From NCBI GenBank assembly GCA_040398005.1, contig JBBAUX010000004.1, forward strand, positions 1-28,156: a DNA stretch of 28,156 nucleotides. The letters run 5' to 3'. The position numbers are program-made. Below are positions 18,001 through 21,000 of this stretch, in pieces. The stretch comes from Opitutales bacterium (GTDB lineage Bacteria > Verrucomicrobiota > Verrucomicrobiia > Opitutales > UBA953). Position 1 is the stretch's first letter, and every line of letters starts with the position of its first letter.

Positions 18001-21000
18001 AGAAGTTTGTTCGGGCGGAATTATTGGTATGGGGGAAACCGTGGATGACCGTCTAAAGATGCTCGTTGAATTAGCGAATATGGATCCGCAGCCTGACTCC
18101 GTTCCGATCAACGCGCTCGTTGCTGTCGAAGGTACGCCCTTAGCTGGAAGAAAATTCGTCGATTCGATTGAATTCGTGCGCACCATTGCGGTCGCCCGAA
18201 TTTTAATGCCTAAGGCAATGGTTCGACTTTCCGCGGGTCGCGCGAATATGAATCCTGAAACTCAGGCCTTATGCTACTTGGCTGGCGCAAATTCTATTTT
18301 CCTTGGGGAGAAACTTTTGACTACGGGAAATCCCGATATCGAAGAGGATATGAATTTGATGAAGCGTTTAGGGTTACACCCTTTACATCCGGATGAAGCG
18401 CGTCGCGTTCACCGCGGTGAAATCAGTCCTTCCCAAGCCCAAGCAGCAGGCTGGCCGAATCCTGAAGAATTAATGAACACCACTCCTGACGGCGAATCTT
18501 CTGAAGGCTGTGGTTGCTCACCTAATCACTAATCGTGGCTGTCATTTTTATCACAGGCAGTGATACGGGCATTGGTAAAACTAATGTTGTAGGGTTGTTG
18601 GCTCGTGAGTTATCCGAATTAGGTAATACCCAGGTGATTAAGCCTGTAGAGTCAGGAGCAACTACTGGGAGACCGGCCGATGCGCCTAAGGCTGCGGGGG
18701 ATTGGGCCACACCGATTACACTTTTCTCATTCGGACCAGCCCAAGCACCGTTAGTAGCAGCAGCTCAATCAGGAAAAAAATTATCACTCCAGAATATTGT
18801 TAAAGCTTATCAGACCGTTCCACCGGCTGAACATCAAATCATTGAAGGGGCGGGTGGTTTGGCCGTCCCCATTGATCCTCTTGGTCTGGATTGGACCGAC
18901 TTCGCCCAAGCGATCAAGCCTGACGCCGTCATTATTGTAGTCGAAGATAGACTCGGTGCGATTAATCAGGCCCGACTTTCCGTCGCTTATTTAAAAAGAA
19001 AATATAACGGACGCATGGGTGTTTGGTTAAATACGGTAAGTCGTACCATTTCACCTGAAACCGCTCAAGCCAATCGCACAGGGATAAAACAATCTAAAAT
19101 TTCATTAGCCGGAGAGTCCTCCTACCAAAATAAGAAAGTTATTTTTAATCCCGAATTTTGGTCATGAATCCTAAGTTGCGTCAACGGCTGGAAAAGGCTC
19201 TCGCTCAGCGCGATGCCGATGGGCTGTTACGTACTTTGAAAGTTCGATCCGCTACAGATGCACGAATTAATTTAGCAGATAATGACTACCTTAATTTAAG
19301 TCACGACAGTGAAGTAATCGCTGCTGCAAGTGCGGCTTTAGATAAATGGGGAGCCTCGTCCTCTGCGTCTCCTTTAGTCACGGGCTACACTGAATTGCAT
19401 CAAGACTTAGAAAAAACTCTAGCCCAGTGGCATGGTTACGCTCATGGACTTATTTTAAATACCGGATTTTCGGCAAACACGGCTGTGCTAGGTGGCTTGC
19501 CTAAAAAAGGGGATATCGTTTTGGCCGATAAGTTAATTCATGCGAGTATGTTGGAAGGAATTTTATCATCAGAAGCCACGCTCCGCCGTTTTCCGCATAA
19601 TGATTTAGATATATTAGAATCCATGTTAGAGGAGTCTAAAGAAAGTGACGCGGTCGTGTTTGTGGTGACGGAAAGTGTTTACTCGATGGACGGGGATTGC
19701 CCCGACTTATCAAGAATATCAAAACTGAAAGAGCGTTATAATTTTTGCTGGGTATTGGATGAAGCTCACGCTACGGGCTGGCATGGGCAAACAGGCTCAG
19801 GCATGCAGGAAGAGCAGGGGGTGCGAGCGGCGGCTGATATCGTGGTGGGCACCTTGGGTAAAGCGCTCGGGGCGCAAGGGGCCTATGTGTTATGTCATGA
19901 TGTTCTTATTAAGAATGTGATCATCAATTTCGCCGCGGAGTTTATTTATTCAACTTATCTCAGTCCGGCATCTGCGGCGGCAGCCTTAGCCGCCATTACT
20001 CGGGTGAAAAATTTAGCCACGGAGCGAACGCAGTTGCATCAACTTTCGAGAGAGTGGAGGGCAGCATTGCGTGCGGCTGGGTTTGCCTCACCCGATTTTC
20101 ATTCACCGATTATTCCGCTCGTCATTGGTGAAGTAAAAAAGACTCAACTTTATGCGGAAGCTTTGAGAGCTGCCGGATTCATTGTTTCGGTGATTCGTCC
20201 CCCCACGGTGCCCCTGAATACAGCACGCATCAGAATTTCTTTGCGCAGAGGATTAGACGCAAAGCATCTTGAAAAATTTATTTCTACACTGAAAGGGGTC
20301 GCCTCATGAAAATCGGATGGATAGGCGGTTGGGGAATTTCGCTCAAGGAAATGCAACCCTTGGCGGTGAGTCATGCCCCTGACGCCGAACATTTAATTTA
20401 TCCACCAGTCATGGGCGCGGCAGAAAATCTAGTGGGTTGTGATATGGTGATTGGTTGGTCTTTGGGCGCTCATTTAATTTTAGAGGCTGCTTCTCGGGGA
20501 GTTAAGTTGCCCGCTAAGGCTTTGCTCATCGCACCCTTTACTTCGTTTTGTAGCGAACACTCAAAATGTGGAAAAGTCAGTGAGACGCAGGTACGCTGGC
20601 TGAGTCGCCTAGTTAAAACAGATTTACCTAATGCTTTGGCCGATTTTCGAAATCGGGCAGGGCTACCGCCCTCTACTATTTCTGAGACGCCGTATGAATC
20701 TAAAAATCTTTTAGAAGGTTTAGAAATTTTATCTCAACCCGCAGGAATCTCGCTGATTAGTTTTTGTCGTCAGGGATTACCGAGTGGCTGGGAGGCCTAT
20801 GTGGGTTCGGAGGATTTATTATTAAACCCTGACGGAGTTTGCCAATCAATCGTCGGCTGCCAGATTGTAGATGGCTTAGGGCATAACCTCAGCGATTTTT
20901 TCGCCGACAACACAAATTAACTCATGCGCTTCAACGAACGTGCACACACCTATGATCAACACGCCGCCCCGCAGCGTCGTTTTGCTGAAGCCTTAGCTGC

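What a model noticed while it worked through the whole genome (the two positions that open the first line are those of the whole stretch)
20306..20920. New family of alpha/beta-hydrolase in the biotin operon: candidate pimeloyl-ACP methyl ester esterase
g00646 (204 aa), wedged between bioF and bioC in a bioA-bioB-bioD-bioF-X-bioC cluster, is a compact alpha/beta-hydrolase with invariant Ser52 (GWSLG), Asp170 and His193 that matches no Pfam or NCBIfam family. The genome has a BioC but no recognisable BioH, BioG, BioK, BioJ or BioV, so this protein most likely is the missing esterase that frees pimeloyl-ACP; it defines an isoenzyme family found here only in Opitutales.
Evidence so far: No family at gathering cut (tables); only Abhydrolase_6 at E 0.008; 125 homologues, those with a name all 'hypothetical', 2 of 120 listed with PF12697; triad invariant in 18 sequences; AF2 pLDDT 94.9; Foldseek: alpha/beta-hydrolases, BioH 4nmw TM 0.73, BioH-ACP complex 4etw 0.70, BioG 5gng also hit; profile found in 7 of 120 other phylum genomes, all Opitutales; bioD-bioF-X-bioC order in 7 of 8 loci, X-bioC in the 8th; no BioH/BioG name in the ncbifam or swissprot tables, g00647 best hit BioC 26%.
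(Added by a program. Inside this text positions count along the whole contig: contig position 1 is position 1 of the stretch shown here. "Call 12" and the like, gene names such as g00115 and contig names such as C1 are that model's own, and its searches are not shown. The text may have been shortened before it was handed on; [...] marks where a part breaks off. The agent that wrote the report below was given it as the finding of a first reader that could run no searches.)

Follow-up and report, generated by a model that had tools for sequence, protein, structure and literature searches.

The report
Miniature BioH-like esterase in biotin operon
A small, unannotated hydrolase gene wedged between two biotin-synthesis genes is very probably the enzyme that removes the methyl "disguise" from the biotin precursor, and it turns out to be a shrunken, fast-evolved cousin of the known enzyme BioH rather than a wholly new invention.

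Summary
The ORF (20306-20920, +, 204 aa) is real. It sits in a tightly packed bioA-bioB-bioD-bioF-X-bioC operon and reaches no Pfam or NCBIfam cut-off.

- G8, W9, S52, G54, D170 and H193 are invariant in 101 diverse relatives.
- The hit lay beside bioF and/or bioC in all 30 loci inspected.
- Natural fusions exist: X-BioC, BioF-X and BioD-BioF-X.
- In its order, the 14 genomes with X are the 14 with the best BioC-model matches.
- Across 301 genomes of the phylum, genomes with X or X-like hits and genomes with BioG never overlap.

X is therefore a miniaturised, highly divergent BioH-type lineage that current models do not cover. There is no assay. The scan had not noted it before.

The parts
16078..17451 (+). 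bioA (adenosylmethionine-8-amino-7-oxononanoate transaminase), first gene of the operon
   Evidence: TIGR00508 491.6 bits, above the cut-off of 405.
17459..18532 (+). bioB (biotin synthase)
   Evidence: TIGR00433 396.1 bits, above the cut-off of 225.
18535..19167 (+). bioD (dethiobiotin synthase)
   Evidence: TIGR00347 82.9 bits, just under the cut-off of 83.3; Pfam AAA_26 63.2 bits.
19158..20309 (+). bioF (8-amino-7-oxononanoate synthase), which consumes the pimeloyl-ACP that X should release
   Evidence: TIGR00858 373.4 bits is the best model, under the cut-off of 426. Its stop overlaps the X start.
20292..20298 (+). Shine-Dalgarno-like AAAGGGG upstream of the X start, inside bioF
   Evidence: Read directly from the sequence. 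Its role as a ribosome-binding site is inferred.
20306..20920 (+). X: 204-aa miniature BioH-type alpha/beta-hydrolase, the candidate pimeloyl-ACP methyl ester esterase
20327..20335 (+). G8-W9-G10, the predicted oxyanion-hole loop directly after the first strand
   Evidence: G8 and W9 are invariant in 101 sequences. The motif aligns with G21-W22-G23 of E. coli BioH.
20453..20467 (+). G50-W-S52-L-G54, the nucleophile elbow with catalytic Ser52
   Evidence: S52 and G54 are invariant in 101 sequences. The motif aligns with GWSLG (Ser82) of E. coli BioH. It lies between strand 47-51 and helix 53-63 of the model.
20531..20776 (+). Residues 76-157: cap (lid) region with four helices (93-105, 107-118, 132-142, 148-155), inserted between core strands 71-75 and 162-167
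   Evidence: Secondary structure of the AF2 model. It aligns with the lid region of BioH.
20813..20815 (+). Asp170, the catalytic acid
   Evidence: Invariant in 101 sequences. Aligns with D207 of E. coli BioH.
20882..20884 (+). His193, the catalytic base
   Evidence: Invariant in 101 sequences. Aligns with H235 of E. coli BioH.
20924..21625 (+). Divergent bioC (malonyl-ACP O-methyltransferase), which makes the methyl ester that X should remove
   Evidence: TIGR02072 84.5 bits is the best model and matches full length (2-227 on profile positions 1-239 of 244), under the cut-off of 185. It is the best BioC-model place in the genome.

Best explanation
X is the pimeloyl-ACP methyl ester esterase of this organism's BioC-dependent biotin pathway.

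Proposed pathway role. BioC methylates malonyl-ACP. Fatty-acid synthesis then elongates it to pimeloyl-ACP methyl ester. X hydrolyses the methyl ester and hands pimeloyl-ACP to BioF, whose gene ends inside the X start codon.

Proposed catalysis. X uses a Ser52-His193-Asp170 triad, with the backbone around Trp9 and Leu53 forming the oxyanion hole.

What X is. It is a trimmed BioH-type alpha/beta-hydrolase with six core strands and a four-helix cap. It lacks the first 13 residues of BioH and has shortened loops.

Shown here: the gene, its invariant residues, its genomic linkage, the fusions, the phyletic pattern, homology to bio-linked BioH-like proteins, and the BioH-like predicted fold.

Inferred: the substrate, the chemistry, ACP docking on the cap, and descent from a BioH-like ancestor.
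For: 1. Conservation. G8, W9, S52, G54, D170 and H193 are invariant in 101 sequences with 32% mean column identity.

2. Gene context. In 30 of 30 loci returned by a profile search of 301 genomes of the phylum, the hit lies beside bioF and/or bioC. Among the 14 strong hits, bioC is adjacent in 14 and bioF in 13.

3. Fusions. Of 11 long relatives scanned, 3 are X-BioC, 1 is BioF-X and 1 is BioD-BioF-X; the last is a cluster of 13 members. One further partial X-methyltransferase form is P0292.

4. Phyletic pattern.
- In the window's order, the 14 genomes with X (of 63, own included) are the 14 with the lowest BioC-model E-values (<= 9.8e-24; the next is 1.3e-22).
- BioG occurs in 60 of 301 genomes of the phylum, in 0 of those 63, and in none of the 55 genomes with an X-profile hit.
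- No genome of the 301 has a BioH over the curated cut-off.

5. Homology.
- hhalign of the X profile against 35 bio-linked hydrolases of other classes gives 99.8%, E 4.4e-28, over 195 columns. Against a MenH profile of 19 sequences from the same phylum it gives E 5.7e-11.
- For 12 of 12 of those bio-linked proteins scanned, TIGR01738 BioH is the best NCBIfam model, at 47-118 bits.
- Of the 30 best BioH-model places in the phylum, the 24 that are bio-linked all match the X profile. The 6 that are not bio-linked give no match even at E <= 10.
- The X profile hits exactly one place in each of the 55 genomes.

6. Structure.
- AF2 pLDDT 95.4.

7. Collinearity. GWG, GWSLG, D170 and H193 align with G21-W22-G23, GWSLG(S82), D207 and H235 of E. 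coli BioH.

8. Weak model hits. At E <= 0.1, the only NCBIfam models that recur among 100 relatives are two esterases of this very step: BioV in 8 (best E 2.3e-5) and BioH in 5 (best E 1.4e-4).

9. Precedent in print. Operon-encoded bioH lies immediately upstream of bioC and is translationally coupled to bioF in Pseudomonas (PMC5438404, passages read). A BioG-BioC fusion exists in Bacteroides fragilis (PMC3494674, passages read).
Against: - No biochemical or genetic test exists.
- Direct similarity of X to BioH is not significant. BLASTP finds only the GWSLG hexapeptide. hhalign against the single E. coli sequence gives 12.6%, E 0.0023. X against the organism's own MenH scores better (E 1.4e-6).
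- The tree shows X as one clade but cannot place it: it joins long-branch controls at SH-aLRT 89. Descent from BioH therefore rests on profile comparisons and structure.
- The lid arginines that I recall as ACP contacts in E. coli BioH are not matched in the hhalign alignment. Two fall opposite N109 and D113, and two fall in a gap. That alignment is weak in the lid.
- The window's BioC itself scores under its curated cut-off.
- The genome holds other alpha/beta-hydrolases: a YbfF-like esterase and three Abhydrolase_3 genes.
Confidence: 0.85

Rival explanations
1. X is an independent isoenzyme family. It would be an alpha/beta-hydrolase recruited separately into the bio operon, with no specific relationship to BioH. 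The function is the same but the origin is different.
For: - No Pfam or NCBIfam model reaches its cut-off.
- The X profile finds nothing in PDB sequences below E 0.17.
- Direct hhalign to E. coli BioH gives E 0.0023.
- The tree does not nest X within the BioH-like group.
- There is a large score gap between the strong tier (147-222 bits) and the weak tier (<= 65 bits).
Against: - hhalign E 4.4e-28 to the bio-linked BioH-like proteins, against 5.7e-11 to a MenH profile.
- The X profile matches only the bio-linked hydrolase in each genome.
- BioH structures are the four best structural matches.
- The GWG and GWSLG motifs are identical to BioH's and the triad is collinear.
Confidence: 0.1
2. X acts in biotin synthesis but on another bond. 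It could be a thioesterase releasing free pimelate or its methyl ester from ACP, or an acyltransferase passing the pimeloyl group to BioF. The methyl ester would then be removed by another enzyme.
For: - Alpha/beta-hydrolases with the same triad include thioesterases. Thioesterase (PF00975) is among the weak Pfam hits of the related bio-linked proteins.
- The BioF-X fusions would also fit a hand-over role.
Against: - A BioC-dependent pathway needs a methyl-ester esterase. No BioH over cut-off and no BioG was found in any of the 14 genomes with X.
- X-BioC fusions and mutual exclusion with BioG fit the esterase role.
- BioF enzymes use pimeloyl-ACP or pimeloyl-CoA directly (established knowledge), so a thioesterase would be counter-productive without BioW, and BioW is not found.
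Confidence: 0.04
3. The esterase step is carried out by an unlinked, promiscuous hydrolase of the genome. Candidates are the YbfF-like esterase on contig 5, one of three Abhydrolase_3 proteins, or a gene in the unassembled 6%. X would then have an unrelated or redundant role.
For: - Such hydrolases exist in the genome, and the genome is 93.9% complete.
- Promiscuous esterases can complement bioH deletion strains, for example EstN1 (PMC6138646; title and abstract seen in the listing).
Against: - This does not explain the invariant triad, the strict linkage to bioF/bioC in 30 of 30 loci, the fusions, or the match between X and the best BioC hits in 14 genomes, 13 of them 98-100% complete.
Confidence: 0.04

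Closest known systems
[quoted passage not shown]
   Same: - Alpha/beta core plus a helical cap.
- GWG oxyanion loop, GWSLG nucleophile elbow and a collinear Ser-Asp-His triad.
- The gene sits between bioF and bioC, as operon-encoded bioH does (PMC5438404).
- X is linked by strong profile homology to bio-linked proteins whose best model is BioH.
   Different: - 204 aa against 256 aa. X starts at the strand that BioH reaches at residue 14 and has shorter loops and a shorter C-terminus.
- No detectable hit to the BioH HMMs for the window protein. Identity in structural alignment is 14-16%.
- The lid arginines that I recall as ACP contacts are not matched in the alignment.
- The residue before GWG is Gly or Ser rather than His.
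BioG (PF04301, formerly DUF452; PDB 5gng)
   Same: - Same size class (about 200-215 aa) and the same slot next to bioC, with natural fusions to BioC (PMC3494674).
- N-terminus runs straight into an xGWG loop, followed by an AWSLG/AWSMG elbow.
- hhalign of X against a 6-sequence BioG profile gives 87.8%, E 3.3e-6, collinear over 183 columns.
- 6 of the 30 nearest ESM-Atlas clusters are BioG clusters (a lead only).
- Mutually exclusive with X in the phylum.
   Different: - No PF04301 hit for X or for any of 30 relatives at E <= 10.
- Foldseek TMq 0.53 at rank 39, against 0.73 for BioH. 5gng is not among the 50 best VIA-align rows.
BioV (Helicobacter; NF033854)
   Same: - Very small esterase (about 21 kDa) with the nucleophile close to the N-terminus. 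The triad is S31/D141/H167 against S52/D170/H193, with similar spacing (PMC4751477).
- 8 of 100 X relatives give weak matches to nearly the full length of the BioV model, best E 2.3e-5.
   Different: - All these scores (<= 24.3 bits) are far under the cut-off of 150, and the window protein itself gives no hit.
- BioV is reported only from Helicobacter and is not operon-linked in the way X is (PMC4751477).
- I could not obtain BioV sequences through the tools, so no profile-profile test was run.
BioK, BioJ, BtsA and EstN1 (other esterases that can do this step)
   Same: They have the same reaction, or at least the ability to complement bioH, and the same alpha/beta-hydrolase clan (PMC3494674 and PMC4751477 passages; PMC7026016 and PMC6138646 listing and abstracts only).
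   Different: - They belong to other Pfam families: Abhydrolase_5 for BioK and Abhydrolase_3 for BioJ, as stated in PMC4751477. X gives no hit to either.
- They are larger proteins and, apart from BioK, are not operon-linked.

Membership tests
BioH (TIGR01738 / NF007674) | Score over the curated NCBIfam cut-off (206.95 bits for TIGR01738) | tested here: not met
   The window protein has no NCBIfam hit at E <= 1. Among 100 relatives, 5 reach E <= 0.1, the best at 21.6 bits.
BioH (TIGR01738 / NF007674) | GWSLG nucleophile elbow, xGWG oxyanion loop, and a Ser-Asp-His triad collinear with S82/D207/H235 | tested here: met
   The hhalign alignment pairs G8W9G10 with G21W22G23, S52 with S82, D170 with D207 and H193 with H235. 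These residues are invariant in 101 sequences.
BioH (TIGR01738 / NF007674) | BioH fold: alpha/beta core with a small helical lid | tested here: met
BioH (TIGR01738 / NF007674) | Demonstrable sequence homology to accepted BioH proteins | tested here: inconclusive
   Direct comparison gives E 0.0023. Transitively, X against bio-linked BioH-like proteins gives E 4.4e-28, and those against E. coli BioH give E 1e-26. The tree does not resolve the placement.
BioH (TIGR01738 / NF007674) | Lid arginines that bind ACP helix 2 (R138, R142, R155 and R159 of E. coli BioH; residue numbers recalled, not from a call) | tested here: inconclusive
   In one search the aligned positions are N109 and D113, and two positions fall in a gap. 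The lid alignment has low confidence. Other conserved arginines (R101, R117) lie in the cap helices.
BioH (TIGR01738 / NF007674) | Cleaves pimeloyl-ACP methyl ester and complements a bioH deletion | not testable with these tools
BioG (PF04301) | Score over the Pfam gathering cut-off (27 bits) | tested here: not met
   No PF04301 hit at E <= 1 for X. None in 30 relatives at E <= 10. None in the six-frame search of the genome at E <= 10.
BioG (PF04301) | Profile or fold similarity to BioG | tested here: inconclusive
   hhalign gives 87.8%, E 3.3e-6, against a thin 6-sequence profile. Foldseek gives 5gng TMq 0.53 at rank 39.
BioV (NF033854) | Score over the curated cut-off (150 bits) | tested here: not met
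   The window protein has no hit. The best of 100 relatives scores 24.3 bits.
BioK (Abhydrolase_5) and BioJ (Abhydrolase_3) | Membership of the Pfam family to which the literature assigns them | tested here: not met
   X has no PF12695 or PF07859 hit at E <= 1. The family assignments are taken from PMC4751477.
Pimeloyl-ACP methyl ester esterases in the functional sense ('works like') | Alpha/beta-hydrolase with an intact triad, encoded with bioC, in a genome lacking any other recognised esterase for the step | tested here: met

The most novel reading that the evidence does not exclude
X is a missing link. It is a lid-bearing mini-esterase of about 200 aa that shows detectable similarity at once to operon-type BioH (strong, through the phylum's intermediates), to BioG (hhalign 87.8%) and to BioV (recurrent weak HMM hits).

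On this reading, the supposedly non-orthologous 'wild-card' esterases BioH, BioG and BioV would be divergent descendants of one bio-operon-encoded ancestor rather than independent recruitments. X would be the smallest form that keeps the ACP-docking cap.
Probability: 0.25. Interest if true: 0.6.

Novelty: new variant of a known kind. Interest (0 to 1): 0.5.

Why it matters
The last step of pimelate synthesis is the famous "wild card" of biotin biosynthesis. BioH, BioG, BioK, BioJ, BioV and BtsA were each described as separate enzymes.

This family fills that step for a large, mostly uncultured group of aquatic and soil Verrucomicrobiota, whose genomes currently look as if they lack the enzyme:
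- It forms 474 clusters at 50% identity.
- The members that carry a name are called hypothetical, alpha/beta hydrolase, or a generic carboxylesterase name.

An HMM for the family would correct biotin-prototrophy calls in metabolic reconstructions of these organisms.

The family also offers a natural minimal BioH scaffold of 204 aa. Together with its intermediates, it gives a way to test whether the isoenzymes are truly non-homologous.

Tried and rejected
- The search for related loci on genome contigs failed twice, with alignments A2 and A3, because there was no conserved stretch of 7-10 columns. I therefore have no organism names for distant members. Taxon names come only from the few named proteins: Opitutales, Opitutaceae, Opitutia and Verrucomicrobiota.
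- Complex prediction (X with the genome's AcpP, L067:1492-1737) was not available, so ACP docking is untested.
- PDB sequence searches with the protein and with profile A1 found nothing meaningful.
- The maximum-likelihood tree (78 rows, quick search) shows X as one clade but could not place it. Long branches meet. I draw no conclusion on ancestry from it.
- No profile-profile comparison with BioV was possible, because no BioV sequence could be reached through the tools.
- The promoter and terminator scan of 15500-22000 gave counts at chance level: 8 found against 8.1 expected, and 7 against 8.2.
- The paper search was badly posed and returned irrelevant papers.
- Two other searches found no paper on this family: 'pimeloyl-ACP methyl ester' with 'Verrucomicrobia' gave 2 unrelated papers, and 'pimeloyl-ACP methyl ester esterase' from 2020 on gave 5 papers. 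Subscription journals are not covered.
- Earlier findings of the scan, searched by place, sequence and words, held nothing relevant.
- I considered and rejected X being BioG in disguise: the Pfam model does not see it, and the fold match to BioH is better.
- I considered and rejected a role for BioW, which is not found in the genome.
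Full report
**Observation**

The ORF at 20306-20920 (+) starts with ATG and encodes 204 aa. 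It is the fifth gene of a compact plus-strand cluster:
- bioA 16078-17451
- bioB 17459-18532
- bioD 18535-19167
- bioF 19158-20309
- X 20306-20920
- bioC-like 20924-21625

The flanking genes are identified by NCBIfam and Pfam. The BioC scores 84.5 bits on TIGR02072, under the cut-off of 185, although that is its best model and it matches full length. The X start overlaps the bioF stop (ATGA), and AAAGGGG lies 8-14 nt upstream.

X itself gives only Abhydrolase_6 at E 0.0078 in Pfam and nothing at E <= 1 in NCBIfam.

**The family is much larger than reported**

- The word-indexed search gives 125 homologues.
- The exhaustive profile search gives 474 clusters (50% identity) at E <= 1e-3, 228 at E <= 1e-10 and 71 at E <= 1e-30.
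- In an alignment of 101 diverse full-length members (mean column identity 32%), the invariant residues are G8, W9, S52, G54, D170 and H193.
- Nearly all members begin M-x(0-10)-W-[IL]-x-G-W-[GA] and carry the serine near residue 50.
- Named members come only from Opitutales, Opitutaceae, Opitutia or 'Verrucomicrobiota'. They are called hypothetical, alpha/beta hydrolase or, in JGI, 'pimeloyl-ACP methyl ester carboxylesterase'. I take that last name to be the generic COG label (my recollection, not from a call).

**Linkage to biotin genes**

I searched 301 genomes of the phylum with the 101-sequence profile.
- 55 genomes had a hit, and each had exactly one hit.
- The scores fall into two tiers.
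  - Strong tier: 147-222 bits in 14 genomes, all of the window's own order. That is the window's genome plus 13 of 62 others.
  - Weak tier: 28-65 bits in 41 genomes of other classes.
  - There were no hits in the 38 other genomes of the same class.
- For the 30 best places I fetched the DNA. In 30 of 30 the hit lies next to bioF and/or bioC. In the strong tier, bioC is adjacent in 14 of 14 and bioF in 13 of 14.

Natural fusions exist. Of 11 long relatives scanned:
- 3 are X-BioC (451-469 aa),
- 1 is BioF-X (606 aa),
- 1 is BioD-BioF-X (776 aa, a cluster of 13 members),
- 6 have only unannotated N-terminal extensions.

A further partial X-methyltransferase protein from an Opitutaceae bacterium appears.

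**Phyletic pattern**

- Within the order, the 14 genomes with X are the 14 with the lowest BioC-model E-values (5.5e-25 to 6.9e-42, and 9.8e-24 for the window's genome). Their BioC hit lies directly beside X. The next best genome has 1.3e-22, and I did not inspect its hit. The rest have 1e-13 to 1e-19.
- No genome of the 301 has a BioH over the curated cut-off.
- BioG (PF04301) is present in 60 of 301 genomes, next to BioC where I compared coordinates. It is in none of the 63 genomes of the order and in none of the 55 genomes with an X-profile hit.
- So each BioC-bearing genome of this sample that could be classified carries one of three mutually exclusive hydrolases in the same slot.
- This also answers the incompleteness caveat: 13 relatives that are 98-100% complete show the same picture.

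**What X is related to**

The weak-tier proteins are ordinary-looking short alpha/beta-hydrolases.
- In 15 of 16 scanned, Pfam finds Abhydrolase_1, Abhydrolase_6 or Hydrolase_4.
- In 12 of 12 scanned, the best NCBIfam model is BioH (TIGR01738) at 47-118 bits, under its cut-off of 207.
- They share with X the N-terminus that runs straight into xGW[AG], and a GWS[LM]G elbow.

Profile-profile comparison (hhalign):

| Comparison | Result |
|---|---|
| X against these 35 bio-linked proteins | 99.8%, E 4.4e-28, 195 columns |
| Those 35 against E. coli BioH | E 1e-26 |
| Those 35 against the genome's MenH | E 1.9e-16 |
| Those 35 against the genome's YbfF-like esterase | E 1.8e-12 |
| X against a 19-sequence MenH profile from the same phylum (control) | E 5.7e-11 |
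| X against a 6-sequence BioG profile | 87.8%, E 3.3e-6 |

A second control comes from the 30 best BioH-model places in the phylum.
- The 24 that lie next to bio genes all match the X profile at E <= 5e-7. Of these, 22 were shown to be bio-linked by BLAST, and 2 by the coordinates.
- The 6 without bio neighbours do not match even at E <= 10.

Direct evidence for X against BioH is weak.
- BLASTP finds only GWSLG.
- hhalign against the single E. coli sequence gives E 0.0023, although the alignment is collinear over 184 columns. It pairs G8W9G10 with G21W22G23, S52 with S82, D170 with D207 and H193 with H235.
- Among 100 relatives, the only NCBIfam models that recur at E <= 0.1 are BioV (8 proteins, best 2.3e-5, covering nearly the whole 167-position model) and BioH (5 proteins, best 1.4e-4). 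MenH models appear twice.
- A tree of 78 sequences shows X as one clade (SH-aLRT 97, stem length 1.0) but cannot place it. Long branches attract it to the controls.

**Structure**

- The AF2 model is confident (pLDDT 95.4, pTM 0.92).
- It has six strands (2-6, 28-32, 47-51, 71-75, 162-167, 185-188) and a four-helix cap (93-155) between the fourth and fifth strands.
- Ser52 follows strand 47-51, and Asp170 and His193 follow the last two strands. This is the canonical topology.
- Foldseek finds hundreds of alpha/beta-hydrolases, with BioH at TMq 0.69-0.73 and BioG at 0.53.
- X is thus BioH without its first 13 residues, with shorter loops and a shorter C-terminus.

**Mechanism**

Shown: the residues, the fold, the linkage, the fusions and the phyletic pattern.

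Inferred:
- BioC methylates malonyl-ACP, and two rounds of fatty-acid elongation give pimeloyl-ACP methyl ester. The genome has fabG-acpP-fabF.
- Ser52, activated by His193 and Asp170, attacks the methyl ester, with the oxyanion held by the backbone at Trp9 and Leu53.
- The cap helices probably dock ACP, as the BioH lid does (PMC5438404, passage read).
- Pimeloyl-ACP then passes to BioF, whose gene is translationally coupled to X and is fused to it in some relatives.

**Alternatives in the genome**

- The best BioH-model hit is a bona fide MenH (TIGR03695, 222 bits, over its cut-off). The second is a YbfF-like esterase.
- Three Abhydrolase_3 genes lie elsewhere.
- No Abhydrolase_5 and no BioW were found.
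- None of these genes is bio-linked.

**Literature**

- Passages read in PMC3494674 cover BioG and BioK, the Pfam assignments and the BioG-BioC fusion.
- Passages read in PMC4751477 cover BioV: 21 kDa, triad S31/D141/H167, restricted to Helicobacter.
- Passages read in PMC5438404 cover operon-encoded bioH upstream of bioC, translational coupling with bioF, the ACP-binding lid, and identities as low as 18-29% among accepted BioH proteins.
- Other papers were seen only as listing and abstract.
- Searches for this family in print found nothing. Subscription journals are not covered.

**Verdict**

- Function: pimeloyl-ACP methyl ester esterase, confidence about 0.85.
- Classification: a discrete, unmodelled, miniaturised BioH-type lineage rather than an independent isoenzyme family. 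It is a new variant of a known kind.

Noticed in passing
L007, L011, L012, L013, L015, L016, L018 (relatives of the same order); proteins P0238 and P0338-P0349: In 7 of the 14 strong-tier loci, bioD and bioF similarity lie in one open frame, an apparent BioD-BioF fusion. A cluster of 13 proteins of 776-795 aa is a triple BioD-BioF-X fusion.
   Followed up: partly
Phylum sample of 301 genomes: Three mutually exclusive hydrolases occupy the slot next to bioC: BioG in 60 genomes, BioH-like short hydrolases in 41, and X in 14. No genome has a BioH over NCBI's curated cut-off. The phylum's BioH-like proteins are therefore probably also annotated only as generic hydrolases.
   Followed up: partly
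49 of 62 other genomes of the window's order: Most sampled genomes of the order lack both X and a convincing BioC, including the two genomes of the sister genus in the same family. They may be biotin auxotrophs or use another route. I did not check them for bioA, bioB, bioD or bioF.
   Followed up: no
window 21622-22368 (-) and 22372-23382 (-): Two RNase HII-family genes lie in tandem, convergent with the bio operon. The second has an N-terminal DUF3378 domain, so it is RNase HIII-like. The first overlaps the end of bioC by 4 nt.
   Followed up: partly
window 20924-21625 (+): The BioC of this operon is itself very divergent. It scores 84.5 bits on TIGR02072 against a cut-off of 185, and the BioC of the same-genus genome scores 88.5 bits. 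Other X-linked BioCs of the order score 109-144 bits.
   Followed up: partly
window 15579-15974 (+): A Dabb (stress-responsive A/B barrel) protein gene lies directly upstream of bioA on the same strand, 104 nt before it. Whether it belongs to the operon is unknown.
   Followed up: no
window 11172-14861 (-) and 14919-15584 (-): A full-length B12-dependent methionine synthase MetH (five Pfam domains) and the 16S rRNA methyltransferase RsmG/GidB lie upstream on the opposite strand. Both are ordinary.
   Followed up: partly
L017 (G099:C10:124784-128371): This is the one strong-tier locus where X-bioC has no bioF within the 1.3 kb upstream.
   Followed up: no
Proteins P0143, P0156, P0165, P0178, P0187, P0201: Six X relatives of 283-328 aa carry N-terminal or internal extensions with no NCBIfam match. 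Some may be mis-called starts.
   Followed up: no
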